Part shown: one piece after another, positions 4,864-64,000 of the stretch
Layout: each line of letters opens with the position of its first letter
Position numbering within the stretch: the stretch's first letter is position 1
From: Amoebophrya sp. A120
Taxonomy: Eukaryota > Protista > Dinoflagellata
Direction of reading: 5' to 3'
Assembly: GCA_905178155.1 (NCBI GenBank)
Contig: CAJINV010000001.1
Location: 12,832,635 to 12,896,634, forward strand
DNA length: 64,000 bases
Position numbers and translations under genes: made by a program
The notes under the pieces: model-generated
The model's input: the letters and a program-made list of their open reading frames with translations, nothing else
Database searches by the model: none
What the model was told of the DNA's origin: nothing

Positions 4864-7800
4864 TCATCCTGACATATCTGCCGTGGCCTCCTGAAAAATG
4901 TCGTGGAGCTCTTTCCACGCGTCAGAAAAAAACTTTTTGCGGTGCTCCGGCGCGATGGAATCAAAATCCAACCTGATATTGGGAAGCCTACCAGCCTCGC
5001 CAGAACACGCCTCAAGATCATCAAGCTGATGATGCCCCCTCCTTTTTGCGTCGACTTCGTCGCTGGGAAGTAGAGCGAAGCAGTCATCATCTACGACAGA
5101 ATCAGAATCTGTCAGCTCCCGTGCTGCTTCTCGGCAAGACGCGGCGAAATTGCCACTGTTGCCATCGTGATCATCTTGGTCAGGCCCGTGGGCGAGGACA
5201 TGCCGAGCCTTTTGATTTTCTGAAGACCCACTGCTGCTGCCGCTGCTGCGTTCACGACGCATTTTCGGCGAAGAATCATCTTCGGATGCCCACCAGCAGG
5301 CCTCCGAAGATTCGTCCGATCCATCTTCGTCGAAAATCTCCACAACTTCTTTGCTGTAATTTGTCGCGTTCCTGTAGTTCCGACCTCTCAGCTGCGACAT
5401 CTTCGAGTTTTGTGTCGTCGGGTCTTCTTGTGTAGACATGGCAGTATCGCTTTCGAGTTGGAACTCTCCTCGCACTATCCTGTGCAAAAGCTGCCCCGCG
5501 ATCGTACTAATCGCTGTCAAATCTTACCTAATCTGGATGGCAATCTTCACAAGTCGTATTTTGTTTTTCTTGTACCTGCAAAAATGCGATTCCGATTCGT
5601 ACTAGCGCGTCGACACTTTAACTTTTGCAATTACATAGGTAGTGCGTACAGTTCTGGCTCGAAAACTTCGCGGATCCAGGTCGATGAGAAGGTGTCCGAT
5701 GATGAAACAGAGCGGCGACGACGCGCGCAAGGAGAATGCAGGGTAGAAAGGAACGCGAAATCGTCTGCTAGCGGCTTCTCCTGTTTACGTTTAGTTAGAA
5801 AAGGGTCTGTGGAGGTTTTCTCAGTTTCAGTTATTTTCAATGTTGAAACTAGGTCAGCGCCCTGCTGCACCTGCACCTGTTCCGCTTCCGGCTGACACTG
5901 ATGGTCGGAGTCATATTTCGGTATTTTTTCGGAAGATAGGAGATCTGGTAATATTCCTGTTCCTCGTCTGACTGCTTGCGCACCAGCTTCGGTTTTGTTG
6001 ATTCCAGTTAAGACTTCGTCAACAAATTGCCCCTGTCGTGGGCGGTGCGGTGGATGAAGCTGCGACCGTTCTGAAATTTCTTGTTCGAGTCGTTCTGTCC
6101 ATTGTTCGTGGACTCCATCATCGTTGACATTTCTTGGTGGGAGTTCTGGCACCGGCGGCGCTCTTATTTCTGTAGTTGCCGAAGACTTTTTCTTCTCTTT
6201 GTCGTCACACGAAGGTACCCCGACGCCAGACGAAGGTACAGATTCTTTCTGTGCCACGGCATGCTCCCGGGAGAGAAACTCGGCCACGACGGAGTATTGC
6301 TCAGCGCAGTCATTCGTCTTTTGCTTTTCCAAAAAGCTGGCGCAAAAATAGTCGTCGACGTCGTCCCGGGACAGCACGGGGTGCTCTATGATCTGTTGCT
6401 GCCTGCTCCCGCCCACGTCGTGGAGGTCCGCTCGGGCACGGGCCTTCTTTTCGGATTCGTTGGCCTGCCTGGCTTCAGAACTGAATGGTTCTTGGGGATC
6501 ACAACGACGATGAAGATCATCATTTACCTGACTCATCGTATCTGGATCGGTGTCTCGGCTTCCGGGGAGCGGGAGTCCTCGTGCTGCAAGCAGCGCAAGG
6601 CCTTGTTCTCTCTGCTCCGCTGGAGACGCAAAGCTTCGTAATTCATCGCGACTTCGTGCGATTGGTACATCATCGTCAAGAACATCAACGACAATGCTTT
6701 GCCTTTCTTCGTCCTTTATTACATTCTGTACTGCTGCTCGCCGAGGTAGCACGACACTTTCCACCTCTTCCGCTCCGGTTCCCGTGCGATCATCGCTGGT
6801 GGGTGGCTTTTCAACTACATCTTCACCCGCAACGGCCTTGTCCGTTTCTATCCGAAGACCACCGTCTCGGCCGCCACCGTCGGTAATCGTCTTTCTCCTC
6901 GTGTCTTGACTGCTGGGAAACAGCACCACAGATCGATGCAGTTTTTCCGGCCGCGGTTCCAAGAGATCGTTGCCAGGGCGCTCAGAGTCAAGGAGCCGCC
7001 GGCAGCTGGATATAACCCGCTCAGGTGTTACAATCTCAAACGTTACAATAGAATATGGAAATCTGTGATGCAAGAGTGCATGATCTAGCCAACTCTCATG
7101 GGATTGCGCATGACAAGTTCCGGAGCGGCCCCGAACCCCACTACAATCTGGCGAAATCTGTATTGCAGAAAGTGGAACGCTGTGCGAGTCTGTCATGCTC
7201 ATCATGCAAGACAAATCTCAGAGTCAGATTCTATTGTAACGTTTGAGATTGTAACGTCTGAGCGGGTTATACTGGAACGGCGGGGTTTCTCGTCCGTCAT
7301 TACCAAAAGGGTCGCGGGCGTCGAACTCGGAGAAACGGAGTCTCTATCATCCTCGCTTTTTTTTCCTCCGATGTCTGCTTCTCGCAGATGATCCTTTCGT
7401 CGGAGAGCTGCGTCGTCACCCGGAGCTGGACTATTTGAAGCTGATGAAGCGCTGGCCGTCCCGGTAGTGCCAGGCCGCGATTTGCGAACCCGTTCGGGTT
7501 GTTCGGAAGCGTTTCTAGTACAACAGGGCTTCAGTAGTTTTTTGCTGTCTGCGTGCGGGTCAGGGTCTGCTGCTGCTGGTGCGACGCTATTCGTGTTGTT
7601 CCCAGAGCGAACCTCGTTCTCGTTGTCCTTGTCTTTTTGACTGAGCGAAGATGATAAACTTTTTCCTTTCGAAGCCAGACGACGTTTATTCGGAGCTTCA
7701 TCAACTTTTTTCTGCACTGCATCTTCGACAAAGGAATCGACGTGTTGATCGCTACAACGGTTCAAGGAGGAAAGGCGACTGCGGCTGATGCTCCTGTGGC

Positions 7801-10201
7801 GGTTTTCATTTTCTTCGAGCTCCGGTGAAGACGGCTTCCTTTTCACTTCGGCACACAGCTCGGTGGGCGACTTTTTCTGGGCAAGTTTATTGTAAAATGA
7901 TTTTTCTCTTGCTCTTGGTGACAGAGACAACTCCGACGTTGATGATCCTCGTCGTTTGCTCTGCATATGACGTTCTCCTTGCCCGCTAATTATCTTCACC
8001 TTGGCAGTAGAAGGCTGTTGTACCAAAGAACGGCTCGTCATCCCTACTCCTGCCGCTTCTCGCAACGGTAGTTCCAGCTCTTCGAACGTTTGCCCGCGGA
8101 AGTGCGACTCGCTTCCACAGCGGGGGATTTCGCTGGGCAGGGAGCTGGGAAACAGGGACTCTCCTGGACATGCGTTCCCTGCCGGCGGCGAACAGCAGGA
8201 CTCGATTCTCGACGGCGCCGTCGAAAAGACGAAGGCGGAAAAGCGCTCGTTAGCAACGCCACAAGAGAGGGCATAGGCATCCTGTGCCTGCCTTCTTGTA
8301 TTGGCTGTGAGAAGTTGTAGACCGTCATCTTCGTGCGCCCCCGATATGGGTACGGTGTGCGTTTCCCTATAGAGGTGCCCATCAAGAGCATAATTCCGAT
8401 ATCGTTCCTCGTTTCTTTCCAACAGGTCCATCTTGGCGTTTATTTGCTCATCGTAGGCTCCTGTACGAGGCAAGAACGGGTCGGACGCGACAGACTTCCA
8501 AGACGACGGCGACGTGGAAATATCATCGGTGGCCGCCCCGTCCTCTAGGGACTTCGCTGCTTTGATGCCGCCCGCCCGACTTCCGTTTTTTTGTAGGCCT
8601 GGCGGAGAAAAAAGGTTTTCTTCGGTGAAGAATCCGTGCTCGAGAGCGCAGAGCAAAGCCTCGTCATTCGCGTTCTCCAGCATCTGGATGCGCCGGTTCG
8701 CAAAAGGGTCGGCGGCAAGGAGGACTCCATTTTTACAGGCGTCTTCTGGTTTTAGTCGTGCGACGCCATGACCACGCGGACGCGTCTTCGAGGAAGCTCT
8801 TCGCGGTTCTCCTGGTCGCAGCTTCTCATGATCTCGGCGTTTTCGAGTAACTGCGGCCCTTGCTTTTTTACTTCCATGGCGTTTTCTTTCCTGCCACGGT
8901 GCATTATTCGCACCTGCTGACGAATTGGCAATCCTCGTTTTCGGTTCGTCAGGCGCGTTCGCTCGTCGAATTGTTCCGGTACCGCTCTGTCGCGCTGCTG
9001 TTTCACTTCCATGTGCCTTTGAATTATGCCTATCGAGTGCAATTTTTTTGTGCGCGTTGGCGTTATTCCTGACATGAGAGGTCCTCGTGCCTCCTCGCTC
9101 ATCTTCTCCTGCGTGGCAACGCCCTCGCCCACGATACGACGACTTTCGCGGTTCTTCGACGGCGGCGCTACGTCCTGCGGCGATAGCATGCACAGCCTCT
9201 GTCGCCTTTTGTTTTCGCGGAGGTAACGATCCGAAACGCGGAGCACCTTGTTCAGGAGCCCGCAGCCGCGAGTGGTCTTCAGTTCCTCGCTCCGCCCACC
9301 CAGGATGGCACAAAATGGCCCGCCGAATTTTTGCGCCCGTTGCGGTGTTGCGACACACCTGCAGAGCTGTCATCCCCCGGCGGTCCCGGAGGTGAAGCGC
9401 GAAGAAGTCGTAGCGTTCGAGATATCCTGTGCAAAAGTATCTATCGCACTCGTATAGATGCATTACAAATTTCCTCAGCATGAGAAATAAAATTTGTAAT
9501 GCAGTTTTACCTTAAGAGCAAGATTTGTAAATGCATGTTTGCGATTACTACGAGTACGATACTTTTGCAATGCATACGAGAATGGCGTAGGCAACTTTCT
9601 TTTGGTCCAAGGCAGCCGCGATGTGCAGACAGGTGCCTCCGGTATTCGGACAGGGCTTGTTCACCTGCTCAAACTGGGGGTGCGACAATATCTCCAGCAA
9701 GAGCTTCTCGTGCAAACCGAGGTAGAGGCCGATGATGACCAGGGACCCCAACTGCTTTTGCTCATCGGGCAAAAGGTTCAGAAAATTGTCCATTCTCGTT
9801 GATGTGGTGCAGTCGGGGACGATGGTCGTTGTACAACTTCTGCTCGCTGCGACCTGGTGCCCGGGGGCGGTCTCATGTTGTCTTCTTTCTCGCCCTTTTC
9901 GGGATGATCTGGAAACAGACTGAGTCCGCTGATCGACGCAGTCGTAGCGTATGTTAGTACCTACACCCGAAGACCACGACCCGCGGTGCTGGCGTTGAAT
10001 CAGGCGCCGGATCTCCTTCAACGTTTTGCGCTCGACGAACAATGCCCGTAGCAAGCGATTAGTTGCCATGGCACGCCGCCGGCTGCTGGCGAGAGTCGGA
10101 GCGTCATTCATGGTGAAATTATCCACATTTTTGATGATCATACTGACAATATTGCGTCCAAAACTGAAACTGAAACTGATCTGGTTGCTTTGCTGAATCA
10201 A
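4864..10201 (-). CDS. Large low-complexity protein with N-terminal ankyrin repeats; interrupted by two introners and one GT-AG intron
   Basis: ORFs 9548-10201, 7202-9481, 5631-7214 and 4864-5520 join in frame. The join at 9423 gives GGTCLHIAAALDQKKVAYAILERYDFFALHLRDRRGMTALQVC (ankyrin-like). Start codon uncertain. Confidence 0.7.
7011..7271. mobile_element. Introner element, family E (261 bp)
   Basis: ~44-bp TIR TATAACCCGCTCAG..GTTACAATCTCAAACGTTACAATAGAAT. DR CTGGA at 7006-7010 and 7272-7276. Removal joins RRS|SCRR in frame. Confidence 0.92.
9423..9576. mobile_element. Introner element, family A (154 bp)
   Basis: TIR core TGCAAAAGTATC. DR CGAGA at 9418-9422 and 9577-9581. Removal restores the ankyrin repeat (AIL|ERY). 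Confidence 0.92.
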
Positions 10202-10877: not shown

Positions 10878-11338
10878 AAAGTCATAACATCCTTCAGAAG
10901 AAAAACCTTCTGAAGAATCTTCAGAAGAATCAGAAAACCTTCAGAAGATCCAAAAGTCAGCACTTTTTTTGACGCGCAAAACTGAAACGGAGTCAGGGCC
11001 TGAATTGCACAAATTTCGCCTCTTTTGAAAACCTTCAGAAGACTCATACCTTCAGTAGATGTGTTGTAACCTTCAGAAGATTTTTGGCCCAAAAAACCTT
11101 CTGAAGGTTTGCCAAAAATAATTCTTGACCTTCTGGAAGGTTTTGGCCTTCTGAAGGTCGTTTTTTCAAAACCTTCTGAAGGTGGAAAACGAAAGTTGCC
11201 ACTTTTTATCAAAAACCGCGAAAAAAATGACGCAGCTTTTTTTGACCTTCTGAAGGTCAAAAAGTCTTCCTGAAGAGCTTCTGAAGATTATGCTCTCAAA
11301 ACCTTCTGAAGCTTTCTTCTGAAGGTTTTGTTAACTTT
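10878..11338. repeat. Intergenic foldback-like array of the palindrome CTTCWGAAG
   Basis: About 13 exact and 3 variant copies. Imperfect ~40-bp inverted ends (AAAGT..CCTTCAGAAGAAA). No DR found. Confidence 0.8.
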
Positions 11339-47800: not shown

Positions 47801-48300
47801 GTTACGCTGTGGCAAGGTGCATTTCTGAAGTCGAGTGCGTACTACAATAGGATACCAGCAGTCCGTCCATCGTGTTGCTGACCCGCTCCACACGCTCCTC
47901 ATCGATCACGCCCCCGCATCCAGTGCAAATGCGATATATGTCAGAGTCAGCACCAAAAGACATCTAGATTTTTTACCTAAATTCATCTTGCTCGCTTACG
48001 CTTTGCAGCGAACTTGCACGAATCAGAAAACCTCGTGCGCGCGGCTCCAGAGGGAGCAAGATAGATGAAGAAGGATGAAAGATATGCACGACGTGTCGTT
48101 CGTAATTTTTTACAAGTAACTTCTTACAGTGACGTAGACATTTATTGCTCTTGCAGTGGATACACGGTACTCGACGACGATTTTGGGTTTCTTTTGTTCC
48201 ACTTTTTCTTTGCTTTTTTTCTTCTTTTTTACCTTTGCGGGCTCGCCTGTGCCGGTGCCGGGAGCGGCGCCCACGTTTGGTAGAATGGTGCTGGTCGCTA
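44851..48300 (-). CDS. Multi-exon protein with a tropomodulin-like (RNI-type) LRR domain; two introners
   Basis: LNDPTLLELSF, LRDNGSLRELNIEGNYV and RALTRNND resemble the tropomodulin LRR. 5' end uncertain. Confidence 0.65.
46611..46766. mobile_element. Introner element, family A (156 bp)
   Basis: TIR TATGCA.TGCAAAAG.ATCGTA. DR CCGGT at 46606-46610 and 46767-46771. Removal joins HYR|QWRP and corrects the frame offset. Confidence 0.92.
47323..47585. mobile_element. Introner element, family B (263 bp)
   Basis: TIR TATCAA.TGTAAAAATGTCTGGG.CTGGAAGA. DR CGCGC at 47318-47322 and 47586-47590. Removal joins KMR|DLMYD. Confidence 0.93.
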
Positions 48301-49663
48301 TGCAGAGAAAAAACACTAAAAAGCATGACGAGGCAATGAAACGTGTGGTGCCAGTCATTACACTTGTAACAGCACATGACGTGCTGTTTTCTTGTCGTCG
48401 GAACATAAAACATGGGATAACTTGATACTTGCATGCTTATCCAGTTTTCCTTTCCGGAGGAACGAAATCATCATAAGTATGTACCCATCCAGTACCAGTT
48501 CCAGTACGGGTATGTGAAGTATGTGACGCGTAGAAAAGTTTGGGTTTTGTGATCCAGTTTTTTCCCCTTCGATACTCGCGACCGTCATCCTTTCTCGCGG
48601 ACAAGCCTGCGGTTTATTCAACAGTCGGTGTGGGTTGCACTGCCCGCCGCGTTCTGTCGAGCTTTTTGCCGTTTAGCAACCACGAAACCCTGCGCCTGGA
48701 ACGCCCGTTCTTGCTAGCACTGCTGCTTGTTACTTGGAGAGAAGGTGGAAGTGGAACGTCGCTTCTTGTCTACGGGGTCGTATACACGGCATTCATATTT
48801 GGATTTCTTCAATGTTTTTGTTTGTATGTCTGCTTGCCGTGAACATAAATCATTGCAAGTAGTAGAGACACAGAAAAGAGTGGCGGGCGCCCTTTTGCTG
48901 GTGCGGTTGGCTTTTGCTCTTTCTCATCTCAGTCTCTCATGTTCATTCCGCCCGGACTCAGCGTAGACGCAGCGAGCTGTAAAAAATTGTAATTACGCGC
49001 ACCAGCACGTGACGGCCTCAGAAAAGAATAAAACGTATCCAGTTCTTCTTGTTGAGAGCAACGTGCTTCAGGAAGTGTCATTTTGGTGTGGTCGCGATAC
49101 AAGCACAAGCAGAACATCTCAAAGAATGTTGACAGTCATGCGCTCGTCTCAAGTTGGAAGAGCCTTTATCGAGTTCTACTTGCGTCGTAGACGCTTCTTT
49201 TTCTTTATTTTCGTACTATTAGATGCTTTCTCCCTTTCTTGCGACGCCATCCCGGCTGTTCTTGCCGTTCCCGATTTCATTTATTCGGGTGCCCCCCTCC
49301 CCACAATCTCACCTTCCTCGAGCGTACACAAATTTGATCAGCTTAGCATCTGCCAGGAATCACTATGTCGATGGATGCGTTGAAAGTGAAAGGTCAAGGT
49401 ACTTCTCTCGTTCTTTGCTTTCCACTTTCATGCGTCCTCCGCCGACACAATTATTCCGCGTATTCAATCAGAAAATTTCATCAGTTAGCGTGCAACTGTG
49501 TTCGACTTGCTAAAGTTTCAGTTTCAGGTTTTGAGTTTGTTTCAATGGTAATCAGTTGTTCCTTGCATCAATTACAAATGGTGTTGGTGCTTGTTATTAC
49601 ATGGTGATGGTAATTTTACATGTTGTGCTTGTGGAGTATTGTGAAGAATTAGAATTCCTCTAA

Positions 49664-52600
49664 CTATTCCATCAACAGGTCCGCCATCGGGGAGGCCGCG
49701 TATTCGTCCGGAAAGTTCTTTTCGAAGGTTTGCACAATCTCGGCGACAAAGTCCGGGCTGTAGACCTTGACCTCGAAGAGAAACTGCAGCAGCTGTTCCG
49801 GTATGCTCTGCAAAGGTATCGCAGTCGTAGTAATTGCAGTCATGCATTACAAATTTTTTTCTTAACGTAAATCCGCATGACAAACTTCATTTCTCATGCT
49901 CTAATGCATTTAATATACGAGTACGATACTTTTGCAGTTCATATCCGGCTCGATCCGGCTGCGCTCCAATTCGTCCGAAAACATCACGTATCAGAGTGCA
50001 CAACTTCTTGGACCTTTGTCCCTCTCCTTTGATTGTCCTACTTTACAAAGCACCATCACAGCCACTGTTTGCCTCTTGGCACTTCTTGTTTTTGCGAACA
50101 GGCAGGGTCATCTGGCAGCCAAGACAACACTGGAATTCTGTGCGAAATTGCCTTTGCCATGCAAAAGCGGCATATATTTTTGTTGACGTTTCTATTGCTG
50201 AAGGCTGATCATGCAGCTGTTAATAATGAAATGCGCTACAAATTATGACGAGCAGGGGAACAAGGGGAACAAGTTGTGCACTCTGATATGACGCGGAGCA
50301 TCTGCACGAAGGTGGTGAGGACCAGCCCGCAGCCGGCCTTCCAGAAGGTGTGCAGGACCACTTGCGCCAATTCCGAAAACTCCGGATCAATCAGAGACAC
50401 ATACACGTACATGCTGATCCGCTCGAACAACCCGGCCCTGGTGTTGTGAAATCATTGTGGAAATGAATTTAATTTTTTGGAAACATCATGCACGAGTAGG
50501 TAATCATGCTTCTCATGGTGGTGCGTGCAGGCGAAAGGCTAAGGCAAGAAGAAAGCACGTGCAACATGCACCAAAGTCGTGTGTTAACTGCCAGTAATTT
50601 GAAAGAACTGAAAGTATTGTAGCTATATGATGTTGATGTGGTCATATATATTGCCTCCGAAATACAGCGAGCGAATCAATTCATACGTAGCTTTGAACTC
50701 TACCAGTCTTCCTCCCCCAGCGTGAGGTCTATGTCTCTGATGCAGGCGAGTAGCAGCTCGAGATGGGCGGCGTCGAAGTAGTCTAGTTCCGAGGCCTCCA
50801 CGTCGTCAACGAAAGCTGACGCGATGTCAAACCCATTCCACAACTGGCGCAAGCAAACCTCGTCGTACGCTCGGGAAGCAGGGCCCATCACGTAACTGTG
50901 GAAAGATTTTATCAAGACGTGCTGCACTTCCTGCAGGACCCCGTCGCAGACTGAAAAAGATGCAGATCATCATCAAGAAAAGCAGACACTATACTGGAAA
51001 AAAATGGAAAATGAACATTTCAACTGCTGCAAATATATGAAGAATAGGAGTGCGAGACTCAACGCATCCAAAACTATACTTCAGTCTGTGCACAACCATT
51101 CCGAGTCGATTTACGCTCATTTCGGCGTCTATCAAATGTAAAAATGTCTGGGTCTGGAAAGTTGTGATGCTGTGTGGCGTGCCATGCATGAGGAGGCCAC
51201 GATTGCTGGCTCAGCATGACAAGTTTCTGAGCTTCTAGGTGTTGCCTATTCTGCATGACAAACTACGTTTCTGCATGACAGAAAAGTGGGGCTCTTTGGT
51301 AATGTGCATGACAGATTTAAGAGTCATGCCAGACAAGCATGACAAACTTGCATTCTTCCAGACCCAGACATTTTTACATTTGATAGCATCCGCCAACAGT
51401 CTCTGTCGTAGCGGCGCCGGCTGCGTCACTAGTATCTGGTAGGAAATAAAGGAATACATAATTGTAAAGGTGGATTCGATTGCAAAACAAGCTGCGGGGT
51501 ACGACTATCAATTTTGAAAAAAGCTGAGCAACGCGCAACCATATCAGCACGCACGTCTACACCAGGATGTACTTAGAAAGTCTATCAGTACCCTAACGTA
51601 GAGCGGCAGCAGCTGCTCCTTGAATTGCGGATGGACCAGGAGCAATACTACGTTGGCGAGCCCCACCTGGAGGACATTTCTCGAGTTAGTTGGAATAAAG
51701 ATGGACTGCACAAAGTGCATCAGCAGTTTCTCCGTTTCCGGTGGCCTCGGCGGCGCCGACGCTTCACTTGAGCTTGCGGATACTGACGAAATGGATTATG
51801 TGGATAGAATGCCAATGCAGTTGCAGCCGTTTGTTCTTTTGAGTTTTGACTTGTTGTACACTGTACAGGCCAAGTCTCACAATTTGTTATCATGATGCGC
51901 GAAAAATACCCTCGCGAACAAGTAGAGCGAATGCTTGTTACGAGTAGCAACAATCTTCTTTCTCTATGCCTGTAGACCCACTTACCTAGATTCAGCAGCA
52001 AATGGCAGGCGAGAAGGAGCAATTGCGCCTGGACTTCCCACCACGTGTCTTGTGCGAGGTTTTTCATTGCCGGTACGAGGGCGAAAACGCCTTCCAGAGA
52101 TATGTCCTTGGCTTCCGGGGCGTAGCTGTGATAGAAATTATTGTAGGCGAATCTATAACGACCACGACGCTCCTGCTCCTCTTCTTCAGCATCAATTTCA
52201 TGATCACGGCAGATCGATGAAGAAGGAGATCGAGGTCTACGCAACCAAAATAATCCACAAAGATAGTGTAGCAATGTCGCCCCAAGGCTAGAAGTATCCG
52301 CACGGTGGGTCGATGCTACGCTGTACTACTTCGTTGCATCACGGTTTTTCATCACCTGGAAGGAAGAAAAAAGAAAATAAGAAGTACTCGGCGGTTTTGT
52401 TGTAGTCGTAATCCTCCTTGGCACTGACGATCTGCGTTAATATACTCAACCCGAATACTATGAGGAGAAAAAAGTGTTACAGTTACACATTGTCATGCAA
52501 GACGGGCAACACAGCCAACCTTTCTCATGCAGGAAATGCTTTGGAGTTGGAGCCTCGTTTCCTTCCTGTTTTCCCTTATGATCTTTGCATTGCAAGTTTT

Positions 52601-54915
52601 CTTTGTCATGCAGAGGAAACTTGTGATGCTGAAGTTACAGCAGATGTGTAACTGTAACACTTTTTTCGTGGGATAAATACCCGGACGCGAGGGGACGCGT
52701 CTTGGATGCCCAGTTGGGCGTAATACAGGTACAGGTCTAGCAGCGTCGGATCCTGTTGTAGATATTCATGTTGACATGTGTTGAAAAGCATTTTGCTTCG
52801 GCGGATCTGATCTCCATTTCCAGTCATCTCCAAGGGACCGTCGGACTGCTGTTGACGCTACCCTCATGTAAATAAGGCGGTCTTGTTGAGACCCGTTAGA
52901 TATCCTGGCGACCGTTGAAGGCAATGCATGAAAGCAGTTGTACAACTTACCCCAAGGAGTCCCATCTGCGCTTCTATACCGACGAGGAAAGACAACAGAT
53001 TTACGTACACCCCGACTTCGGCAACTCGCTCCTTCAGGTGCCTTAGCGCTGCAATGTGCGCCTGCGACGTGTCACCGCTGTAAGAAAACACGAAGTCGGC
53101 CACCGCCTCCCGCTTACTGCCGACCAGCGTCGCCAGCTTGGCCATGTCCGGAAGGCCTCCGTCGATCCACAGGTGCTCGGTGATGACCGGATCCGTTTTA
53201 GACAGCGTGGCGCCGAGGCGCTTCAAAAAGTACGCAATGCCCTCGAACACGGGGTTGTCGTGGCTCAGCGAGAACAGCGGCTGGCTGAACAGGGTAAAAA
53301 TTTTCGAAAACTCGGGTGGGTTCTTCAAACATGTCTCGGCGATGCCGCGCAAGACGCCCTGCCCGGTCAGGGACTCGAGTATTCTAAGTGTAATCCCCTC
53401 CGGAATCTGCTCCACGTGCTCCATGAAACTGACCACCTGCAGAATGAAGTGCAGACTCAGTCGCGATGGATTTGTTGTTAAGGATGCACGACGGCGGGGG
53501 AACAAAATCAAAGTGCGCCATAATATTTTTTGCAGTAATTGATTAAAAAATCAAAGTTCAAATTGCAGTCCTACTACTTCATCTCACAAAAATGAAGAGG
53601 TCCCTGCTTCTGGTACCAGGTCTTTTCTTGGATCGATGATGCGGTAGCAGTCTGCATCAATGGCTTCGGCAAAGATGGGCTTCATTATGGCGAGACAACT
53701 CTCTCCGGACACGGCCCCGTCGTCGAGGCTCCGGGCGGACGCCGAGGTCGCGAGCCGGCTGTGCTGCCGGAACATGGTCAAGTTTTTACTGATCGGCTTT
53801 ATGCTTGCCTCCTTGATGTCCAGGTGCGAGATCTCGAACTGTTTGTCGGTCAATTCGCTTCTTCATAGGAGTCGATGTCCAAAAGAGCAAGGTCCGTTTC
53901 ACTAAAACAGGCCGCCCCATGGCGGGATTCACTACGGCAAACAATTTCTACTGAAACTGAGTTCAAGTTCTTCCAGGGGTACGAAGATAATGATAAACAA
54001 AGAACAAAATCCATGAAATAAAAAGTTTTTTTAGTACATTGCTACTGACGACCCTCGGCTCGCCCCTACCGGAGTGCGCAGGTCTGCTAGTCCGTGCCGT
54101 TGACATCATTTGCGCTTGTTCTCGTTTCGCTGGCTCGGGTGGATCCGGTTCCTTTGCAGTAGTTGAGGCTGCCCTTGAAGCCGCGTCATCGGCGCCCTTT
54201 ATCGAAGCGAAGAGAAATGAAATCGATGCTGATTCCAAATGTGATTTAAGTTTTTTCAATAGAACCCCTGGAGGAACAACTTGTTCTTTTAGATGAAGCC
54301 ATGGCGTCGATACAAACTAACTGCCTATATCGCTCTTCTGGCTGGCCTCCAGCAGTAGAGATCTTTTCATCTTTTTCGGCATGTAGGGTGAATGTCTTCA
54401 GTTGCTCGTCATGCCACCCTATCAGTATCTTTTGCAAGACGCATTCGCTTTAGGAATCATCCAGGCGACTTTATCTTCTCGTCGATATCTCCAGTGGCGG
54501 CGGCACTGGCGTCTGCGGGTATGGTTTCTACGAGCGCATTGTAGTCCACGGCCACGCGCTTGGTTAAAAATGTGTACAGTTTTTTCATGAGCGCGACGCT
54601 CGCGCCGGCGACATTGTTGATTACCGGATCGAAGTCCGGCCGGCCGATGTCCACCTTATGTTTCACAAAAAATTTCAGCAACTGGTCCCAGTTATCCCGC
54701 TTGATCTTCAGCTGCGTACCGGCCTCGTATGAGTGCATGTGGATCTCCTTCGGGTGGTACCTGGAGAGCACTTCTGCCACCAAGAATCCGTTGCTGAAGT
54801 CGCGCCCGACATTCACGATGGCGAAACTCAAGTCCAGTGACTGTAGCCACTTTAGAATCTCCCGAGGCAGCCGCGTTTGCGGCTCCACCCCGTCGGTTGG
54901 CCGTCCTGGGAACAT
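49664..54915 (-). CDS. SPATA4/SPEF1-like CH-domain (DUF1042) protein with a long helical C-terminus; four introners plus several GT-AG introns
   Basis: LPREILKWLQSLDLS..RDFSNGFLVAEVLSRY..KRDNWDQL. The last exon ends PMADLLME*. Some internal exons are only approximately traced. Confidence 0.75.
49802..49943. mobile_element. Introner element, family A (142 bp)
   Basis: TIR TATG..CTGCAAA.GTATCG. DR TCCGG at 49797-49801 and 49944-49948. Removal joins RIEP|EQLLQF. Confidence 0.92.
49989..50288. mobile_element. Introner element, family C (300 bp)
   Basis: Perfect 18-bp TIR TATCAGAGTGCACAACTT. DR TCACG/TGACG. Removal joins MLRV|MFSDEL. Confidence 0.9.
51130..51385. mobile_element. Introner element, family B (256 bp)
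   Basis: Perfect 30-bp TIR TATCAAATGTAAAAATGTCTGGGTCTGGAA. DR GCGTC/GCATC. Removal joins LAD|AEMS. Confidence 0.92.
52459..52675. mobile_element. Introner element, family F (217 bp)
   Basis: TIR TAT.....GAAAAAAGTGTTACAGTTACACAT. DR AATAC at 52454-52458 and 52676-52680. Removal joins RVRV|FGLSIL. Confidence 0.92.
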
Positions 54916-56607
54916 TTTTCGACCGCGGCTCAACACTAGTAGATGCCACCAAGCAGTAAGAAAGCTGCGTCGAATAAAGCTTCCTACCACGGTCGATTGG
55001 GCGCGTCGTCCTGCTCAGCAAGGGAGCATGTTCTTGCCAGTTCTTGTACTCAACATGAAAAATCGTTGTAGTTTATTATCCGGTGCAACGCGCCGCCTTC
55101 GCGCTGCGCGCGCACCGAGTGCGGGGAAACGACCATGCAATCGTCTACTGCGCGCTTGGTAAACTAAATGAGTCTTGTATTATATTTCAATTCCGTTGAC
55201 AACAGTCTGCCTCTGCACTTTTCATTTTCTGCAGCATATTGAGTTCGGGAACAAGCCTGCGACGGCGAACGAGAAATCTCCGACCCATCTCGAATGTCAA
55301 GCTCGAGTTTCGACGCGACTCGCAATACAAACAGCCTTGCCCTTGCCCCCTCTCGTCGTCGTCGTCGTGCTCGTGGCCAAAAAGAAGAACTACAATAAAC
55401 ATGGACGCTAGGCTAGCCAGAGGAACGAATCTCCTCCACACAGCATTGATTTCTATTGCTTTGTCACTCCAACATACTACACATACGAAATCGAAAACAC
55501 GTGAAGCGCTCTGATTGTTGACACTCAACGGCACTCAGCAATCAAGTGCTGACTGTATATTTCACACATGTTTGTAGACGAGAACGTAACGTGACTGAAG
55601 CATCAGCATCAGAAGAGGAAAACGTCAGTCATTTTCCCCGTCACGCCATATTAGCGTGGCCTTTATGGTCATATTTTCTTGTAAACAGCTAGCCCGTAAT
55701 ATCATTATCCAAATCCATCCAAGGATCACCAGTCGGCCGTCGTCAAGCAGCAAATCGCGGTATCTTCTCTTCCATCCTCAAGCTAGCAACTTTTATATAA
55801 ACATTGTACAATTATGTGTCATGGTTTCATTTCCTTTTTTCAAACCCGAGCCCCAGCAGGTTGAACTACTAGCATTGAAGGATGAGAGTCAACGAGTCAC
55901 GATAAGGTCCCGCTCATTCTCATGCTGCAGGCCGCGGTAATTTTTCTGATCTTGCCTAGTAATCAAACAGTAACAGATAGTAACGTAAGTTGTAAGTTGA
56001 AGACGATTGTTGAATAGAAGCACAGGGAGGTTCTTTGAAGATCATTTCTGAGGTGACGATGAGCATTTGCAATGAAACTACATATTAAATGAGATGACTA
56101 TGATGTTGTACAGCAATTTTACATTTCCATCTGTCAACATTCTCGATGACACTTACAACCATAAAAGTCAAGTAGCAGCCTTAGAAATATTCATCAAGGA
56201 AACTTCGATTTTGCATAAAGTGGATAAAAAATGTTTTGCGAAGATAGCAGTCGCGCATCGTCATGCAGAACCTGCGACGAGGCTTGACGCAATGTCACGT
56301 TGTAATAAGTAGTAATGTAATGAACGGTATTAAGGGGCGCCATCTGCATCTATTAGAATGCCGACGTTTTTTTATCGAGTAGTCCCGACACGGGACGTGT
56401 AGAAGCGTTCAAAAAAAAAGAAAGTTGGAAAGATGCAGGTGTTGAGTGGAAACTCGGGTTTTACAGCCGTCCGCGCCGCGTGGAAGAGGATGGAACTACA
56501 GGGTAAGTAGGCCCCGAGGAGCGGGCTACGCGTACAAGGAGTTTTCTCAGTATCACGACTCGATGGACTTCTCGTCTGGTAGGAGCGAACTTCTTCCAGC
56601 AATAAAC

Positions 56608-59600
56608 TTATTTTCGGCGAATGAACACACCCTGTTCCATCTCGACCGGGTCAAAGTCTCCTAGCGGCTCGTTGAGCAAGCGGCTGACGATCTCCGCGGG
56701 CACCTTATTGAACTCCATATCTTCGAAATTTCCCCGCAAATCCAGCACCGCCAGCGCAGCGCTCGCCGCTGCGGCGTAGACCAGTGCGGAGAACGCCTCG
56801 TCACTGCGGAAAGCGATCTCGTTGTTGGAGAGGCACAGGAACTGGATTGTGGGGTGCATGGCCACCATCTCCGCGAACCTCAGAGCGCCCAGCTCGCGCA
56901 CCCGGTTGCTGCCCAAGTCGACGGAAAGCACGTTCAGCAAGCTGGTTTCCACCTCGCTGTGATGCAGCTCCGAGCCGCCGATGCTTTCCGCGAGCGCCAT
57001 CGCGCCAGATTCGGTGATGTTATTCTCGGACAGATTCAACGACGAGAGGCGCGGCAGCGACTGGATGCTGTGCGCAATGCACACGGCGCTGATGTCGCTC
57101 ATCTGATTCGCCTGCACGCTCACGTGCACTAGCGTAGATCCACACTTCACCAACGAAGTAAACCTGAGATTTGGTTGTATTGATATATATAATCACGAAC
57201 TGGTACTGGAGGCTAAACTTCTACATTATGTACACAATGACAATCCAGGCCCAGTAGCTTTTACTCTGCGTTCACGCTTCACTATTTGTTCCTGGGTTTT
57301 GGAATTTTTGTATGCGCGTTGCAGTCTTGTGAGCTTCGAGAGGACGACATTTTTCCACCGCAAAAGTGCAACAAAAAAAAATCAGATATAGAAGCGAATG
57401 CTTGTACAGGTCCACCACGCCGGAGTCCCCTAAGTTGTTGAATGCCAGGTTCAGGTGCGTCAGCGACGCTAGGTCCAACTGGTCCGCGGCACCCAAGTCC
57501 CAACTCAGGGGGGACATGGAAAGAAACAGGTGCTGGATGTCCATGGAGCTGACCGAACCCAAAATGTCGCCCACCACGGCGGGATCGACGAAGGGAAAAC
57601 AGATGCGGTGCTTGGCCAGTCATCCTGTGGAAAAAACTTCGAGTTGTCGTGCCAACGTTGACTCTTCTGCTTGCAAAATTATACTTTGCAGCACACCAGA
57701 TCGACACGCACAGGCAAAACACAACATATAATTGGTTTTGGCAAAAAAATTGCATGCAAATAAAAATACTTAAAACAGACCACACGGACTGTGAAAATTG
57801 AAATTCTAAAATTCGAATTGCCAGGACAACGCGAGGATATGTTTTTTCCATTTTCCTAGGAGCTTGTCGCTGTAGATGTCGGAGTGCGTCAGGTGCACCT
57901 CATCGTTTCCATACAGTGTACGGAAGCAGTCGTGCATGCGCTGGCTGTTGATGTTGTTTACATAAAGCGGCTTGGCGGGTAGGTCCGTGAGTGCGGCTGC
58001 GCCGTCTGCGGTTGCCGAGCCTCCTCTTATCGCCGCGTCCTTCCGCGCTTTCCGCTTCACCAATTTCTCCACCAGGTGCCCGAAAATGCCCGCGGGGCCC
58101 GCTGTGTTGACGTGCACCGTTTTTGTGACCGCCTTCACGACCGTATCCATTATGGAGTTCTCAAATGTTACATTCTCAACTGTTACATGATTTGTCATGC
58201 AAAATTACCTTGACTATCGACGCCATCAAGCCGCTTCGCGCGGCAAATTCTCATACGGCCAAACAGGCTCAGAATCTGTGTCAAATCTGTCATGCAAGAC
58301 GCGCAAGGTCCTTCCTTTCTTTTCACATTTGCCATTCTTGCATCACAAATTCATGCAACAGTTGAGAATGTAACATTTGAGAACGCCATATCCATTTCTT
58401 CTTGGTTCTGCATTAGGAAAATGGTGCCGTCGTCCTGGATGTGCATCCCGTGCTCGGCAGGAATCTTTGGAATCACACTCAGCTGCACTTTGGTGCTCAC
58501 GGGAGTGGCGCGGAAAAATCGTACTATTTCCTTCAGCTCACGCTCCAGCTTAGACCTGAAAATTCGACGTGTAACAACGAAAATCAGTACTAACAACACC
58601 ACATAAATCCACAATCACAAAACAGTGCGATGTGATCAATCGGAAGTCAACATCCACCTGGACAGGACGTGCTGGACAAAGTAAATTTTTCTGCCTGTAC
58701 CTGATGACTATTGGTGGCACGAAAGGCGCGGTGTTTCCGGTCGGTGCTCGACTGACGTCGTGTCTACGCTTGCTGCACTTTTGCTCCATGGCTGCCAGCT
58801 CGGACTCCATGTCCATGTTGTGTGTGACCAGGAGATGCACGTGGCAGTGTGGGATTGCCGGGAAGGTGTGCAGGACGTGCGCGAAGAAGTGCGCGTCGCA
58901 TTCCGACAGAACGCTGTTGCCCACCGCTTGGTCGACGTCCACGCGGATCACGGCGGGCGGCAGGGGTTTTCCGGCCGTCGTGGCGACGGTAAGCGCCTCG
59001 ATATCGATGCCGTTCAGCACCTTCAGGCTTTTCAGCCCCGCGCTGCTGGGTTCCTGCTGGACGCTGGCCGCCTCCCCGAAGGCGGTCAGTGCAATCTTGG
59101 ACCGGAGCAGCTGGTACAGCTCGAACGCCGTCCGCGCGCGGAGTTTCGGGCAGTACCGGACGGTCAGCTTCTCCAGCGTCGGGCAAGCGTTTTCGACCGA
59201 TAATTGCTTGCACAAAACCGCCACCGCTGCATCCGTCAGGGACGGGTTGCGCGACAGGTTCAGCTCCTGCAAAAACGGAAGCGATGTCGACGAGGGGAGG
59301 CCTGTCGTTTCAGAAACAAAAGAAAGATGCGGGGCGTGGGAATATCACTTTCGAATTGTGATGTCAAAAGCAAAAGCTTAAGCTACAGGCTGAAAAGTGC
59401 TCATACGTATCACCACCATCTCAATCAGGCCTACGCTGCGCTCAAGTATCAGTGGAGAATGAGTCCAAGCAGAAAACGTTCAACAGATCAAGTAAACAGA
59501 AGAGATGTCTCTATGACCACTATGATCACTACACTTCTTCTAAAATGAAGTAGTACCGTCCGCGGGTGTGAAGCACTTGAGCAAGCCGCAAAGACCACGC

Positions 59601-62600
59601 ACGCCAACATCGGTGATGGTGTGTCCCTCCATTTTTAGCGGAGAGGTGTTGGGTTCCGGCCACACGACGTGCGGCCAGAGTTTTAGCCTGGAGAGAAGCC
59701 CGAGCGAAAAGTCGTTCCACACCACATCGTTGGCCAGTATGGCCCCCTTGACGCTGTCCGTCCCAGTAACCTGACCCTTCTTCTCTTCGAGTAGTCTCAT
59801 CAGCGGAATGCCATTCACTGTGCGGAGACGCGAAGAAATTTCGGAAACCGCTGACAGCAGCAGATTAGCGCCCCGATTGCTGGTGTGATAGCGTTGTTTT
59901 GTGGTCACGACTCTATCGATTTTTGACAATTATGGTCTCGCGTACAACTGAGAAGACCATCCCCCTTTTTATTTTTTTTTGTTCATCTTGCAGCTGCATC
60001 GATCGATTCTGATACTTGTTTGGTTATGTTCATCTGCAGATGCCGATGTGGATCACTCCTTCATGAGGAGAAAGTTGTAGTACCAGGTGTTGAATCAGGA
60101 GCTGCGATCCATCGAATTCGAAAGACGCTTACCTAAGAATATGGAAAACTCAAAACCGCTGTATTGGTATTTAATGAAGCAGTATCATGTACCTGAGCTT
60201 CAAATTCACGAAGTCCAGATTTTCCAGTGATGGCAGCGCGAGCAGGGCGTCGCAAATGTAAGCCAAGGTTGAATCGGATACCGCGTGATCCTTCACCTGG
60301 ATACTGGTAAGCTCGGGAAAGTTGGTCGACGTTACCAGGGACGCAAACAAGTAGCCGTCTCCCTCGTCTAGCGTGACGTATTCGCTGGCGAAGGCCGTGG
60401 CGCAGTAGATGTTGTTGCTTTCGTTCTCTTTCTGCTCTTCCTCCGCCAGTTGGGGCACCGGAATGCCGTGGTGATCGAACTTCAACTCTCGCATCGTGGT
60501 ATGCAGGGCAAAAATCGTTGTATCGTTGAGGTTGCCGTACTACCCTTTTTTCTTTGTCACCAATAAAAATACGCTAGTACCAACTACAGAGACAAGACCA
60601 TACATCATCTTCATGGTCATGGTGTCACACACGAGCTTCAAAAAGTTCAGGCACTGCCTCTCCTGCGTGGAGGCTTTCTAGGATCACGTTCACGATGTAA
60701 GTTGTATCATATTTTCATGTCAAAAACTTACTCCACGTATGTACACCCTCTACGATACCTTTTTTTCCCACAATATTTCTGCGCGTCGTCGACCACGACG
60801 GGAATCTGGTTCAGTGTGAGCAAAGTGTTGTTCTTCTCGAGCAGACTGATGATGTACAAACAGTCCTGCTTGTCCAATCCGTTCCCCCTCAGGTCCAAGG
60901 ATGCTATTGTGGGGCTGGACAATAGCGACTCCAGGCACACGCGGAGAAAATCACTGCTGAAACTCTTGTATGAATTGCAAAAAGATCTTTGGTCACAGTC
61001 GCCTGACAGAAAGATGGAAGAGCAATACATATACGATCTTAACTTTAAATTGGTTGAGACGAGGATGGTTGTGATCGAGATTGTCTCTTGTCCTTGAACT
61101 ATAAAGCTCGCTTGTACTTCAACACCTTGCATGGTTATTGAGCTTCTCGCTCCTCATCCCGTACAAACGAAACTTCTCACCTCAACATCATGGCAGAATT
61201 ACTTACTGCATCAACTTACTGTCAATGTATGTCATCCTGCCCGCAAGATCATGACGACGACCACATGCTTTAACATTTTTTTTCCCGTAGCTGGCTCGAG
61301 CTCGTTGCTTTCTGCAGGACGGACTCGGTGCCGAGCTTGGTGCCCACCGGGTCCCAGTGAAATTGCTCTACCTCGTTGGGGTCTATTTCCAGGGCGGAGA
61401 ACCCGGGTAGGTCCGTAAGCTTCTCCATCCCGCCGCCGGGCGCGTCGTTTTCGAGGTACTGTCCCGGACGAAATTTGCATCGCGGCTTCGCCCAGAGCGC
61501 TCGGCTGGTGTTCGGCCACTCGTCGCACCGCAGATTGCCGATCAGTTGCTTCAGGTTGACTTGGCAGAGCGACACTTCCCGCAGCTGCAGGGTGGTGTCC
61601 AGCGTGGGCAGCTCAAACGCGAGCGGGGTGTGCCCGCCAAGGTCGTCGGGGTAGAACTGCCCCCCTTCCCACTTGCCCCCGCTGGCTTCGGGGTAGTAGT
61701 ACTCTTTCGGCGTGGTTACGCAAGGGATGTAGACCTGGGGCGCGTAGGTGTCGTTTTTGGCCCACCCGTCCACCAGAACCGCGCCCAGGGCGTTTGCGAA
61801 GTCGGTGAGCGTCATAGCCACCAGGGCGTTTTTCGGGACCTGGCCCACCGCGCTCGTCATCACCTCGAAGCTCTTCGAGGCCGCGGAGCTGATGCCCTGT
61901 TATCAAAAGGAAAAATCCCCCCTCCCCATATCGAAACGAAGTTTCTGATGCTGGATTTGCGTACCCAAATCAGATCTGTCTTGCTGGCGAGGACTGCAGG
62001 CGCCTGCCAAGCCTGAGTAGAGAGCTTTTGGCCTAGGCGCTTAGCATGAGAAACGTCTACGCTGTAGGCCCAACAGCATGACAAACCGCCTGCATAGTGC
62101 GGCAGAGCCTGCGGCGTTGTCTTCTTGCAAGACAGACTTGATTTGGGGTCTCAAATCAGCAAGACAAATTTTCGGAAACATACCTTTTCGATATGGGGAG
62201 GGGGGATTTTTCCTCTCAATACCTGTTGCAGCTTCACCAGGGACGCCCGCTGCGCCTCGCTGAAGACCTTCGGAACCCGCCGCGTCTGGAGCCACTTGCG
62301 GTCCAGCCGTATTCGCTCCAGGTCCTGCTTGCTGTCGGGACTCTGGAAAACGTCCACCAGCGCGTCCAAAACCGTTTCCAGCCGTTCGAGCCCGAACTCG
62401 CGTAAGTTTGGCAGCAGCTTGGCGGCGCGGACCATTTCAACGGCGGTGTTCTGGCTGCGGAGCCGCAGGTTGTGCACGAAGGGAGGGATGTTTCGGTTCC
62501 CGTTGTTCTCCTGCAGGTAGGCCGCGATTGCCTGCTGCGTCTGCGCCACGCCGCTCGCTTTCTGGTCGAGGAAGTGCAGGTATGAGAGTGCACAATTCCC

Positions 62601-64000
62601 CCTCCACCTCATTTGTATTGTATGAACAGCAACACAAGCAACAGCGGAAAAGGGACTTTTTCATGACAAATCTGTATGCGGATTGTAGTAGTATCTATTT
62701 GAGGTTCCAAAATTTGTCGCGCTAACAGTGCCTACGAGCAAGGTGTCGTGCTCGTGTGAGTTTGGTATTTTGCATTACAAATGAGGGCGAGGGGGACTTG
62801 TGCACTTTCATAGCAGGTCAATGTCGTATACCAGCTTGTCCACGAGCCGAAAGCAGTCAAAGACGAAGGGGATCTTCAAGTCTTTTCTGCCGCAGGTCAG
62901 GGACAGCATCAGCAAGGAGTTTTCATCATCCTGCCCGCCGCCGAGCTGGCACACCACGCCCGGGCAACATTCCAGAAGCTGTTTTCAGTTTATTAGTGCC
63001 AGCATTTGGATTCATTTGTACGACTACTAGCATAGCAAATGGCACTAGCCAACCTTTCGCGTTCTCAGACCACAGGAACATGCCCACAGTAAAAAAATTT
63101 CTGCGCCCCATTTCCAGTGATTTTAATTCATTCGTACCGAAAAAGTGAGAATTCGCCTGTGAAGATTTGGCTCTTAGTCAGAACTTGTTACCAACAAAAG
63201 TGCGCGCTCGGCACTATCGGAGTCGTAGTTTTTGAGTTTGACGTTTCCGAAGACTTGCAGGGTTGGTATTTCCGCGAGAAAGTTCTGCAGCACCTGCCAG
63301 TGTTTTCTATGGGGTCCGAGCTTGTCTTTAATCCAGGTGGGCAACCGTCCGTCGTTACTCCAATCCGGCGGCACCTCCGTGATGGTTGCGGCCGCGTAGC
63401 CGGGCAGCCTCAGATCCAGCAGCGACTTCGACGTTCTGAGATGACGCATTATTTGCACCGCTAGCCCGTCCATACCCGGCGGAATGGCGAGTTGCACCTG
63501 AAAATGTAAATCAAACAAAGCAATAAGAATAAGCAGGAAGTTGCAATTCAAATTCTACTGCGTATTAGATGAAGCTGCCGCTTGAGGAATGTTCTGTCCT
63601 GTAGCCCTCGCAAACTTATAATTTTAGAACGGCTCGTCCCAATGTAACAATAAATGAAAAGCAGGGAGCATGAATTCCGATGGATGTAGTTGCTATAAGT
63701 ACTTTCGTAAGAATGTGGCGGCACTCGTGAAGACAATTGTTCAGCGCCGGACAGAAGCTAACTGGGTAGGCGGTAACCGCTGGAAATTCGTTGGTGAAGG
63801 TCGTCTTGGCAGCTCCATACTTGAAATCCGTTTTACTCGCGGGGCAGATCACCGCGAGCAGCCAAAAATAGAGGGCAATCTCGGACTTCACAGGGCTGGC
63901 AAATATGCGGTCGACAAGCTATCAACATGAAAAAATCTACATCACCTCATCGCCGTTCGCCTTCGCGGTTTATTTTCAGTGTCCTCATTGACATCAAGTA
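56608..64000 (-). CDS. Large multi-exon RNI-type leucine-rich-repeat protein (5' end probably outside the window)
   Basis: LSSLNLSENNITESGAMALA, LTHLNLAFNNLGDSG, IASLDLRGNGL and QELNLSRNPSLTD. Contains three clear and two eroded introners. Confidence 0.75.
57621..57858. mobile_element. Eroded introner-like intron (family A-like)
   Basis: Inverted TGGAAAAAAC near both ends. Left end CATCCTGTGG resembles 9423 TATCCTGTGC. Flanks CCAGT/GGAGC. Removing element+5 nt gives DKL|AKHRIC. The nearest CAG acceptor leads to a stop. Confidence 0.5.
58151..58390. mobile_element. Introner element, family D (240 bp)
   Basis: ~40-bp TIR as at 38313. DR TCCAT at 58146-58150 and 58391-58395. Removal joins EEM|DTVVK. 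Confidence 0.93.
60500..60775. mobile_element. Eroded introner-like intron (family A-like)
   Basis: Arms TATGCAGGGCAAAAA..GTATCGTTG and TATTGTGGGAAAAAAAGGTATCGTAG. DR lost. Removing element+5 nt gives AQK|MRELK in frame. Confidence 0.5.
61901..62221. mobile_element. Introner element, family G (321 bp)
   Basis: TIR TAT....AGGAAAAATCCCCCCTCCCCATATCGAAA, extending imperfectly to ~100 bp. DR CCTGT at 61896-61900 and 62222-62226. Removal joins LQQ|GISS. Confidence 0.93.
62581..62812. mobile_element. Introner element, family C (232 bp)
   Basis: TIR TATGA.AGTGCACAA.TCCCCCTC..CCTCATTTGTA. DR GCAGG at 62576-62580 and 62813-62817. Removal joins DIDL|HFLDQ. Confidence 0.93.

What the first reader, a model, noticed from the sequence alone, without database searches (positions are those of the whole stretch)
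7011..62812. Multi-family system of TA-ended, TIR-bounded, 5-bp-DR elements acting as mostly non-GT-AG introns
Seen: 15 elements of at least six TIR families share one architecture, DR5-TA(T)...(A)TA-DR5. All lie in coding exons, and removing element+5 nt restores the frame each time, including conserved ankyrin and synapsin motifs. Only three (21319, 47323, 61901) allow an in-frame GT-AG within the DR. Known: similar introner elements were reported in Amoebophrya, and to my knowledge their excision mechanism is unresolved. Inference: these are MITE-like DNA transposons removed by a structure-guided pathway that does not need AG.
Basis: partly seen in the sequence, partly recalled or inferred. 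Interest (0 to 1): 0.88.

Follow-up and report, generated by a model that had tools for sequence, protein, structure and literature searches.

The report
Transposon introns cut by fixed ruler
These are the already described transposon-like introns of the marine parasite Amoebophrya A120; the added detail is that transcripts lose them at one fixed distance from their inverted ends, ignoring the usual GT-AG signals, likely through a modified spliceosome.

Summary
Real, but a known class. The window is Amoebophrya sp. A120 (annotated proteins 99-100% identical), whose TAT-ended introners were described by Farhat 2021. I recovered 15 elements matching the description and 7 decayed ones. Transcript contigs skip exactly element+5 nt at 9 of 9 elements in the stretch laid; annotated proteins show it at 8 more; 5 rest on reading frame alone. 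DNA-like contigs keep the elements. Added here: copies with decayed direct repeats fix one cut register, N|TAT...ATA-NNNN: one base before the 5' TIR, four after the 3' TIR. Four loci exclude an earlier register, three a later one. In-frame AGs are skipped at 47323 and 48299. In a second assembly both end dinucleotides are unbiased and 209 of 291 pairs have exact 5-bp repeats. The donor (NTA) falls in the register of the canonical GTA donors. An internal GCATGACAA-like motif is shared across TIR families. Farhat left the border unknown; I found the register in no paper searched, but figures were not visible. Machinery untested: spliceosome about 0.5, endonuclease-ligase about 0.35. The scan noted similar introns in three other genomes.

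The parts
5476..5637 (-). Decayed element, DR lost; predicted intron 5472-5638
   Evidence: TIR ends seen; element+5 gives 199/200 open codons; no RNA test
7011..7271 (-). Element, perfect DR CTGGA; predicted GT-CA intron
   Evidence: frame only
9423..9576 (-). Element, perfect DR CGAGA; predicted GT-TC intron
   Evidence: frame only
21319..21540 (-). Element, perfect DR CCCGC; in-frame GT-AG (element+2) also possible
   Evidence: frame only
38313..38552 (-). Element, perfect DR TTTGT; predicted AT-AA intron
   Evidence: frame test not discriminating
40735..41168 (-). Decayed element in synapsin-like gene; AT-AG at the inferred register
   Evidence: RNA joint skips 439 in 3 of 4 runs; Pfam Synapsin_C on both sides; fold z +1.4
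41700..42309 (-). 610-nt element, perfect DR CTGCT, about 350 nt of unique inner DNA
   Evidence: RNA joint skips 615 in 3 of 4 runs
46611..46766 (-). Element, perfect DR CCGGT
   Evidence: RNA joint skips 161 in 4 of 4 runs
47323..47585 (-). Element, perfect DR CGCGC; in-frame GT-AG (265 nt) available, not used
   Evidence: RNA joint skips 268 in 4 of 4 runs
47917..48162 (-). Decayed element, DR CCCCG/CACGG; allows k=0 or 1 only
   Evidence: RNA joint skips 251 in 4 of 4 runs
48299..48574 (-). Decayed element, DR GTCGC/CTCGC; needs k>=1; in-frame AG skipped
   Evidence: RNA joint skips 281 in 3 of 4 runs; fold z -1.0
49802..49943 (-). Element, perfect DR TCCGG
   Evidence: RNA joint skips 147 in 4 of 4 runs; P0002
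49989..50288 (-). Element, DR TCACG/TGACG; needs k<=1
   Evidence: RNA joint skips 305 in 4 of 4 runs
51130..51385 (-). Element, DR GCGTC/GCATC; needs k<=2
   Evidence: RNA joint skips 261 in 4 of 4 runs
52459..52675 (-). Element, perfect DR AATAC; TT-AT at the inferred register
   Evidence: only element+5 matches annotated P0002; A25 orthologue aligns without gap
54200..54487 (-). Decayed element, DR lost; needs k>=1
   Evidence: RNA piece starts at 54489; P0002 allows k=1-3
57621..57858 (-). Decayed element, DR lost; needs k>=1
   Evidence: P0001 allows k=1-5; 243-nt removal keeps the frame
58151..58390 (-). Element, perfect DR TCCAT
   Evidence: only element+5 matches P0001
60500..60775 (-). 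Decayed element, DR lost; needs k<=1
   Evidence: P0001 allows k=0-1; 815-nt transcript gap solved only with it
60969..61289 (-). Decayed element; needs k>=1
   Evidence: RNA piece starts at 61291; P0001 allows k=1-3
61901..62221 (-). Element, perfect DR CCTGT; the only GT-AG at the inferred register
   Evidence: P0001; RNA piece ends at 61895
62581..62812 (-). Element, perfect DR GCAGG
   Evidence: only element+5 matches P0001
55662..64000 (-). LRR gene (P0001, Amoebophrya sp. A120) holding six elements; 5' part lies beyond the window
49167..55203 (-). CH-domain gene (P0002; A25 orthologue P0003) holding five elements

Best explanation
These are Amoebophrya A120 introner elements, short TAT...ATA inverted-repeat inserts that transcripts lose together with exactly 5 flanking bases, at an inferred fixed register and likely by a modified spliceosome. 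Shown: element+5 is missing from transcript contigs or annotated proteins at 17 of 22 elements, and DNA-like contigs keep them. Inferred from decayed repeats, assuming one rule for all copies (about 0.9): the intron is N + element + NNNN, so the 5' cut lies one base before TAT, the 3' cut four bases after ATA, and neither GT nor AG is needed. Inferred: a cut-and-paste transposase not found here inserts them with a 5-bp target duplication, which 1+4 removal undoes exactly, in either orientation. The shared inner motif likely serves transposition, since spliced decayed copies lack it. Committed mechanism (about 0.5, untested): the U2/U5/U6 spliceosome, without U1, reads the TIR's TA as intron +2/+3 as in the canonical GTA donors, while pairing of the ends or a factor bound to the TAT-N7-AAA ends sets the acceptor by distance.
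For: RNA joints at element+5 for 9 of 9 elements in 40150-51440; the same contigs also skip 5 canonical introns, so they are spliced RNA. Allowed registers intersect at k=1 only; annotated proteins add four decayed loci with the same intersection. Chance that nine informative loci all allow k=1 under random cuts is 0.003, 0.016 after six registers. AG skipped at 47323 and 48299. Second assembly: exact DR of 5 bp in 209 of 291 pairs, 3 bp in 4, 4 bp in 2; G at +1 in 46 of 157, GT-AG in 6 of 157. Canonical donors are GTA in 6 of 6. All nine predominant A120 non-canonical motifs in Farhat Table S4 begin NT. Of 230 oriented elements, intron +4 deviates in 9 (8 to C, as in GTAC donors, which breaks the hairpin pair) and +2 in 1 (Fisher p=0.057). 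U1 not detected in A120; U2AF35/65, SF1, SF3B1 present.
Against: A spliceosome free of any preference at +1, -2 and -1 has no precedent I know (recalled); Fritillaria keeps AG-A(N) biases. No branch point was identified, and A at -7 is not invariant (4 of 230 deviate). The TA may be conserved for transposition alone; the register match has a 1-in-6 prior chance. The end asymmetry is not significant. Two spliced copies lack a predicted in-register hairpin. The register comes from old copies only. RNA contigs are one study, two samples, and may share data with the annotation. Contigs drop minor isoforms. No transposase found.
Confidence: 0.5

Rival explanations
1. Same introns and register, but removed by a non-spliceosomal protein endonuclease plus RNA ligase that measures from the paired TIR ends, as proposed for euglenid nonconventional introns.
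For: No bias at +1 or at the acceptor in 157 oriented elements; AG skipped twice; 14 of 18 folded elements have z below -4 and most pair +2..+4 with -5..-7; euglenid TIR introns leave as circles (review PMC11282704).
Against: Register equals that of canonical GTA donors; T-to-C drift at +4 breaks pairing; copies with weak folding still splice; A120 keeps most spliceosome parts. No such enzyme was looked for, since no genome is held.
Confidence: 0.35
2. Removal is real but the cut slides within the repeat from copy to copy, as Farhat's Fig. 3 legend suggests ('variable').
For: Perfect repeats cannot locate the cut; only nine loci are informative; legend text.
Against: Four loci need k>=1, three need k<=1, none excludes k=1; p about 0.016.
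Confidence: 0.08
3. The elements are cut from DNA, like ciliate IESs, in the expressed nucleus or stage.
For: TA ends and short repeats resemble IESs (recalled). Only one DNA-like run was laid, its kind is not on record, 605 joints were not shown, and contigs drop rare alleles.
Against: X1 contigs at depth 42-46 run unbroken through six decayed elements (47556-49846, 52650-58177, 58365-61925) and into the TIRs of young ones, while contigs lacking the elements also lack canonical introns.
Confidence: 0.03
4. The junctions are reverse-transcriptase template switches across hairpins between short repeats.
For: All RNA evidence is from assembled contigs, presumably cDNA; hairpin plus repeat is the known artefact setting (abstract listing PMC8240250).
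Against: Copies with little or no repeat left show the same +5 junction; the element-free form lies in the main full-length contigs; the A25 orthologue (66% identical) aligns without gaps at 4 of 5 junctions; retained elements carry stops or frameshifts.
Confidence: 0.02

Closest known systems
Introner elements among non-canonical introns of Amoebophrya sp. A120 (Farhat et al. 2021, PMC7789003; classed 'TIR DNA, unknown' in Gozashti 2025, PMC12130899)
   Same: Same organism; IR starts TAT + 7 nt + AAA; RNA-supported non-canonical introns near 240 nt; many families; DR at borders.
   Different: Farhat gives DRs of 3-5 nt and unknown or variable borders; Gozashti's rows 1-22 of 58 give automated TSDs of 2-5 nt. 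Here: strict 5-bp DR, one register (1+4), and a cross-family inner motif.
Euglenid nonconventional introns (PMC11282704 section 6; PMC11170887 passages)
   Same: Terminal base pairing offset from the cuts, TSD-like repeats, presumed MITE origin, no GT-AG.
   Different: Euglenid stem pairs +4..+6 with -8..-6 (CAG/CTG); here +2..+4 with -7..-5 (TAT/ATA). Circular excised RNA shown there, untested here.
Fritillaria borealis MITE-derived non-canonical introns (review PMC11282704; Soo 2026 PMC13326754 abstract)
   Same: Transposon-derived introns removed despite non-canonical ends.
   Different: There spliceosomal, with AG-AC/AG-AT bias, duplicated U2AF and U1 kept; here no end-dinucleotide bias, U1 not detected, one U2AF35 and one U2AF65 listed.
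IS3EU/GingerRoot DNA transposons (Kojima and Bao 2023, PMC10045372 passages)
   Same: TA..TA termini with TIRs.
   Different: TSDs are usually 6 bp there, 5 bp here; no transposase seen here.

Membership tests
Amoebophrya A120 introner elements | Host is Amoebophrya A120 | tested here: met
   Window exons match annotated A120 proteins at 100% and 99%
Amoebophrya A120 introner elements | IR begins TAT, seven variable bases, then a run of A | tested here: met
   TAT at both ends in the 14 young window elements and the A-run in most, not at every end; profile of 191 elements in the second assembly
Amoebophrya A120 introner elements | Short direct repeat (3-5 nt) at the borders | tested here: met
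   5 bp: 12 perfect, 3 with one mismatch among the 15; 209 of 291 in the second assembly
Amoebophrya A120 introner elements | Removed from transcripts with non-GT-AG ends | tested here: met
   9 of 9 joints; 1 of 22 is GT-AG at the inferred register
Amoebophrya A120 introner elements | Repeated in families | tested here: met
   Depth of element bins far above the 43-fold background; 13 of 18 elements hit the second assembly, the decayed ones do not
MITE (non-autonomous TIR DNA transposon) | TIRs, fixed-length TSD, short, non-coding, many copies | tested here: met
MITE (non-autonomous TIR DNA transposon) | Cognate autonomous transposase with the same ends; empty allelic site | not testable with these tools
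   No genome held, records not held; 972-nt and 610-nt copies have no long ORF; Farhat found no transposase in A120
IS3EU/GingerRoot | TA..TA termini | tested here: met
IS3EU/GingerRoot | 6-bp TSD | tested here: not met
   0 of 291 exact 6-bp repeats; not filed here
U2-type spliceosomal intron | GT(GC)-AG ends | tested here: not met
   6 of 157 GT-AG at k=1, at most 6 at any register
U2-type spliceosomal intron | Branch point, lariat, snRNP dependence | not testable with these tools
   No raw reads of this strain; X9 laid only 39 reads
Euglenid-type nonconventional intron | Terminal pairing with CAG/CTG at +4..6/-8..-6 | tested here: not met
   Pairing present but TAT/ATA at +2..4/-7..-5
Euglenid-type nonconventional intron | Excised as full-length circles | not testable with these tools
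   needs excised-RNA sequencing
Ciliate-type IES | Absent from somatic DNA | tested here: not met
   Present in DNA-like run X1, absent only from spliced contigs; one run, rare alleles invisible

The most novel reading that the evidence does not exclude
Amoebophrya A120 removes tens of thousands of transposon-derived introns by a second, non-spliceosomal pathway: a ruler nuclease-ligase that cuts one base before and four bases after the TAT/ATA ends, exactly undoing a 5-bp target duplication, so one unknown transposase can insert in either orientation at any codon without harm.
Probability: 0.3. Interest if true: 0.85.

Novelty: already known. Interest (0 to 1): 0.45.

Why it matters
The class is published, but its splicing mechanism is open and the published borders are 'unknown'. 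A fixed register gives exact intron ends for about 30,000 A120 introners (count from Farhat). That allows correct re-annotation, primer design for lariat versus circle sequencing, and minigene tests. Either outcome would interest splicing specialists: a spliceosome indifferent to G+1 and AG, or a second nuclear splicing pathway. It also explains why the invasion is tolerated: 1+4 removal restores the target site exactly.

Tried and rejected
Purine bias at intron +1 seen in the window vanished in 115-157 oriented elements: rejected. A fixed branch A at -7: 4 of 230 deviate: unsupported. Inner motif as a splicing signal: absent from spliced 47917 and 48299, and present in both orientations, 374 against 446: rejected as required. 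Transcript-length checksums were not unique for 57162-58698 with canonical introns only or for the CH-domain gene (none, time-out, 7002 solutions); replaced by annotated proteins. Frame test in the second assembly is noisy: element+5 alone best in 117 of 242, +4 in 40, +6 in 35, 50 ties. No RNA holder is on record as RNA; X3-X6 are read as RNA because they skip canonical introns. Homologue search for the 5476/7011/9423 gene found nothing. No Rfam match, no match in viral contigs, no whole genome, records not held. No transposase ORF in long copies. Earlier-findings look-ups by sequence and place were empty. IS3EU membership rejected on TSD length.
Full report
Observation. A scan for TA...TA inverted ends with an exact 5-bp direct repeat (DR) gave 13 hits, 12 of them clear elements, against 0-2 in each of 10 shuffles. 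Allowing one DR mismatch added 49989-50288 and 51130-51385; 40735-41168 was read from the sequence. Element+5 gave the longest two-sided open frame at 7011, 9423 and 21319, but the test does not discriminate at 38313 or at short exons. In-frame GT-AG exists at 21319, 47323 and 61901 only, among the 15. Synapsin domains are confirmed; the ankyrin label is not.

Identity. Window exons match proteins labelled Amoebophrya sp. A120 at 100% and 99%, with an A25 orthologue at 70% over the query. Farhat 2021 (PMC7789003; I read the abstract, sections 10-12, 16, 25, passages, supplement part 4 and supplement search hits; no figures) describes A120 introners with IRs beginning TAT, seven variable bases and an A run, DRs of 3-5 nt and 29,850 copies. 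It says that the border position 'remains unknown', that U1 was not detected and that no transposase was found in A120. The class is therefore known.

RNA versus DNA. In 40150-51440, four contig sets from one study (two samples) show 14 joints: 5 canonical and 9 at elements, each skipping element+5 (439, 615, 161, 268, 251, 281, 147, 305, 261). Two of the nine, 47917 and 48299, were not among the 15. Record coordinates leave no extra letters: the 294 nt between 47317 and 48576 equal the three exons (106+56+132; hand sum). Run X1, read as DNA from its flat 42-46 depth, runs unbroken through six decayed elements and into the TIRs of young ones; 605 of its joints were not shown. Annotated proteins match only element+5 at all six elements of P0001 and all five of P0002. 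The A25 orthologue aligns without gaps at 4 of 5 junctions. Tally: 9 by RNA joint, 8 more by annotated protein, 5 by frame only, of 22. The annotation is transcript-built and may share data with the contigs.

The register. Let k be the number of upstream DR bases inside the intron. Perfect repeats allow any k. Decayed ones do not: 47917 allows 0-1, 49989 at most 1, 51130 at most 2, 40735 at most 4 and 48299 at least 1, so the RNA joints intersect at k=1. Annotated proteins add 60500 (0-1), 60969 (1-3), 54200 (1-3) and 57621 (1-5); RNA pieces starting at 61291 and 54489 agree. Under random cuts all nine would allow k=1 with p=0.003, or 0.016 over six registers. Assuming one rule, the intron is N-TAT...ATA-NNNN. 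At that register 1 of 22 is GT-AG. At 47323 and 48299 an in-frame GT-AG (element+2) is available and the contigs do not use it.

Second assembly. They share the families (best hits up to 98% identity) and gave 291 TAT...ATA pairs, some false: exact repeats of 5 bp in 209, 2 bp in 34, 3 bp in 4, 4 bp in 2, 8 bp in 1, 6 bp in none. Of 252 kept (100-700 nt, at most 2 DR mismatches), 115 were oriented directly and 157 by locus. Intron +1 was G 46, A 43, C 35, T 33; no acceptor exceeded 17 of 157; GT-AG was 6. The flanks carry no signal. All nine predominant A120 non-canonical motifs in Farhat Table S4 start NT, and all nine for A25 start TT, which fits an NTA donor, though aligner bias may contribute.

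Anatomy. TIR positions 1-3 and 11-13 are paired in 179-188 of 191 elements, positions 4-7 in only 82-142. Fourteen of 18 folded introns have z below -4; 40735 (+1.4) and 48299 (-1.0) do not, yet are removed. A GCATGACAA-like motif occurs 56 times in 4,570 element bases against 24 in 59,430 outside (defined on these elements). It holds up in the second assembly at 17.1 against 2.45 per kb, in every end group (overlapping loci counted twice). It lies in both orientations and is missing from two spliced copies, so it more likely serves a common transposase (inference). TA..TA ends recall IS3EU/GingerRoot, but those have 6-bp TSDs (PMC10045372 passages).

Mechanism. Canonical donors are GTA in 6 of 6, the register in which the TIR's TA falls. 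Drift at +4 is mostly T to C at the 5' end (8 of 9), which matches GTAC donors and breaks a hairpin pair; +2 deviates once against five at its partner (p=0.057). This leans weakly to a spliceosome (about 0.5). Full freedom at +1 and at the acceptor leans to a nuclease-ligase (about 0.35). Nothing here tests catalysis.

Literature and novelty. Seven searches showed no paper stating this register or the inner motif. I saw passages of PMC12130899 plus 22 of 58 A120 rows of its file 8 (files 13-14 not searched), section 6 and passages of PMC11282704, passages of PMC12005148, PMC11453091, PMC9860276 and PMC11170887, and the abstract of PMC13326754. Roy 2023 and Henriet 2019 were not read. [quoted passage not shown] The scan noted comparable introns in three other genomes, not checked here. 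Verdict: already known; interest 0.45 for the testable register.

Noticed in passing
window 10860-11940: Intergenic repeat block: many short inverted copies at 10860-11340, then 40-nt tandem and inverted units at 11560-11930. No hit in the fetched loci. Possibly another decayed foldback element.
   Followed up: partly
window 41700-42309 and L031 3001-3972: Long copies of the commonest family carry 350-700 nt of unique inner DNA with no long ORF; they could be remnants or captured DNA. The 610-nt copy is still spliced at +5.
   Followed up: partly
window 47330-47368, run X9: A 2026 RNA run with the same species label laid only 39 reads, mostly 90-95% alike and nearly all on TIRs: a related element family in another sample.
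   Followed up: no
window 47692-47855: This canonical GT-AG intron begins GTATCC like one TIR family; it may be an old introner turned canonical (by eye).
   Followed up: no
window 1-64000: All Pfam-supported ORFs are on the minus strand (cNMP-binding, TTI1, WWE, Sas10, synapsin, CH, LRR), as in dinoflagellate unidirectional gene blocks.
   Followed up: partly
window 40236-43420: A synapsin-like ATP-grasp gene in a parasitic dinoflagellate, with both Pfam synapsin domains above cut-off.
   Followed up: partly
window 1947-2199 and 28543-28736: Weak further candidates for decayed elements from the relaxed scan; untested.
   Followed up: no
L001-L133: Families have distinct left and right TIR ends at positions 4-10 and insert in both orientations relative to the gene.
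   Followed up: partly
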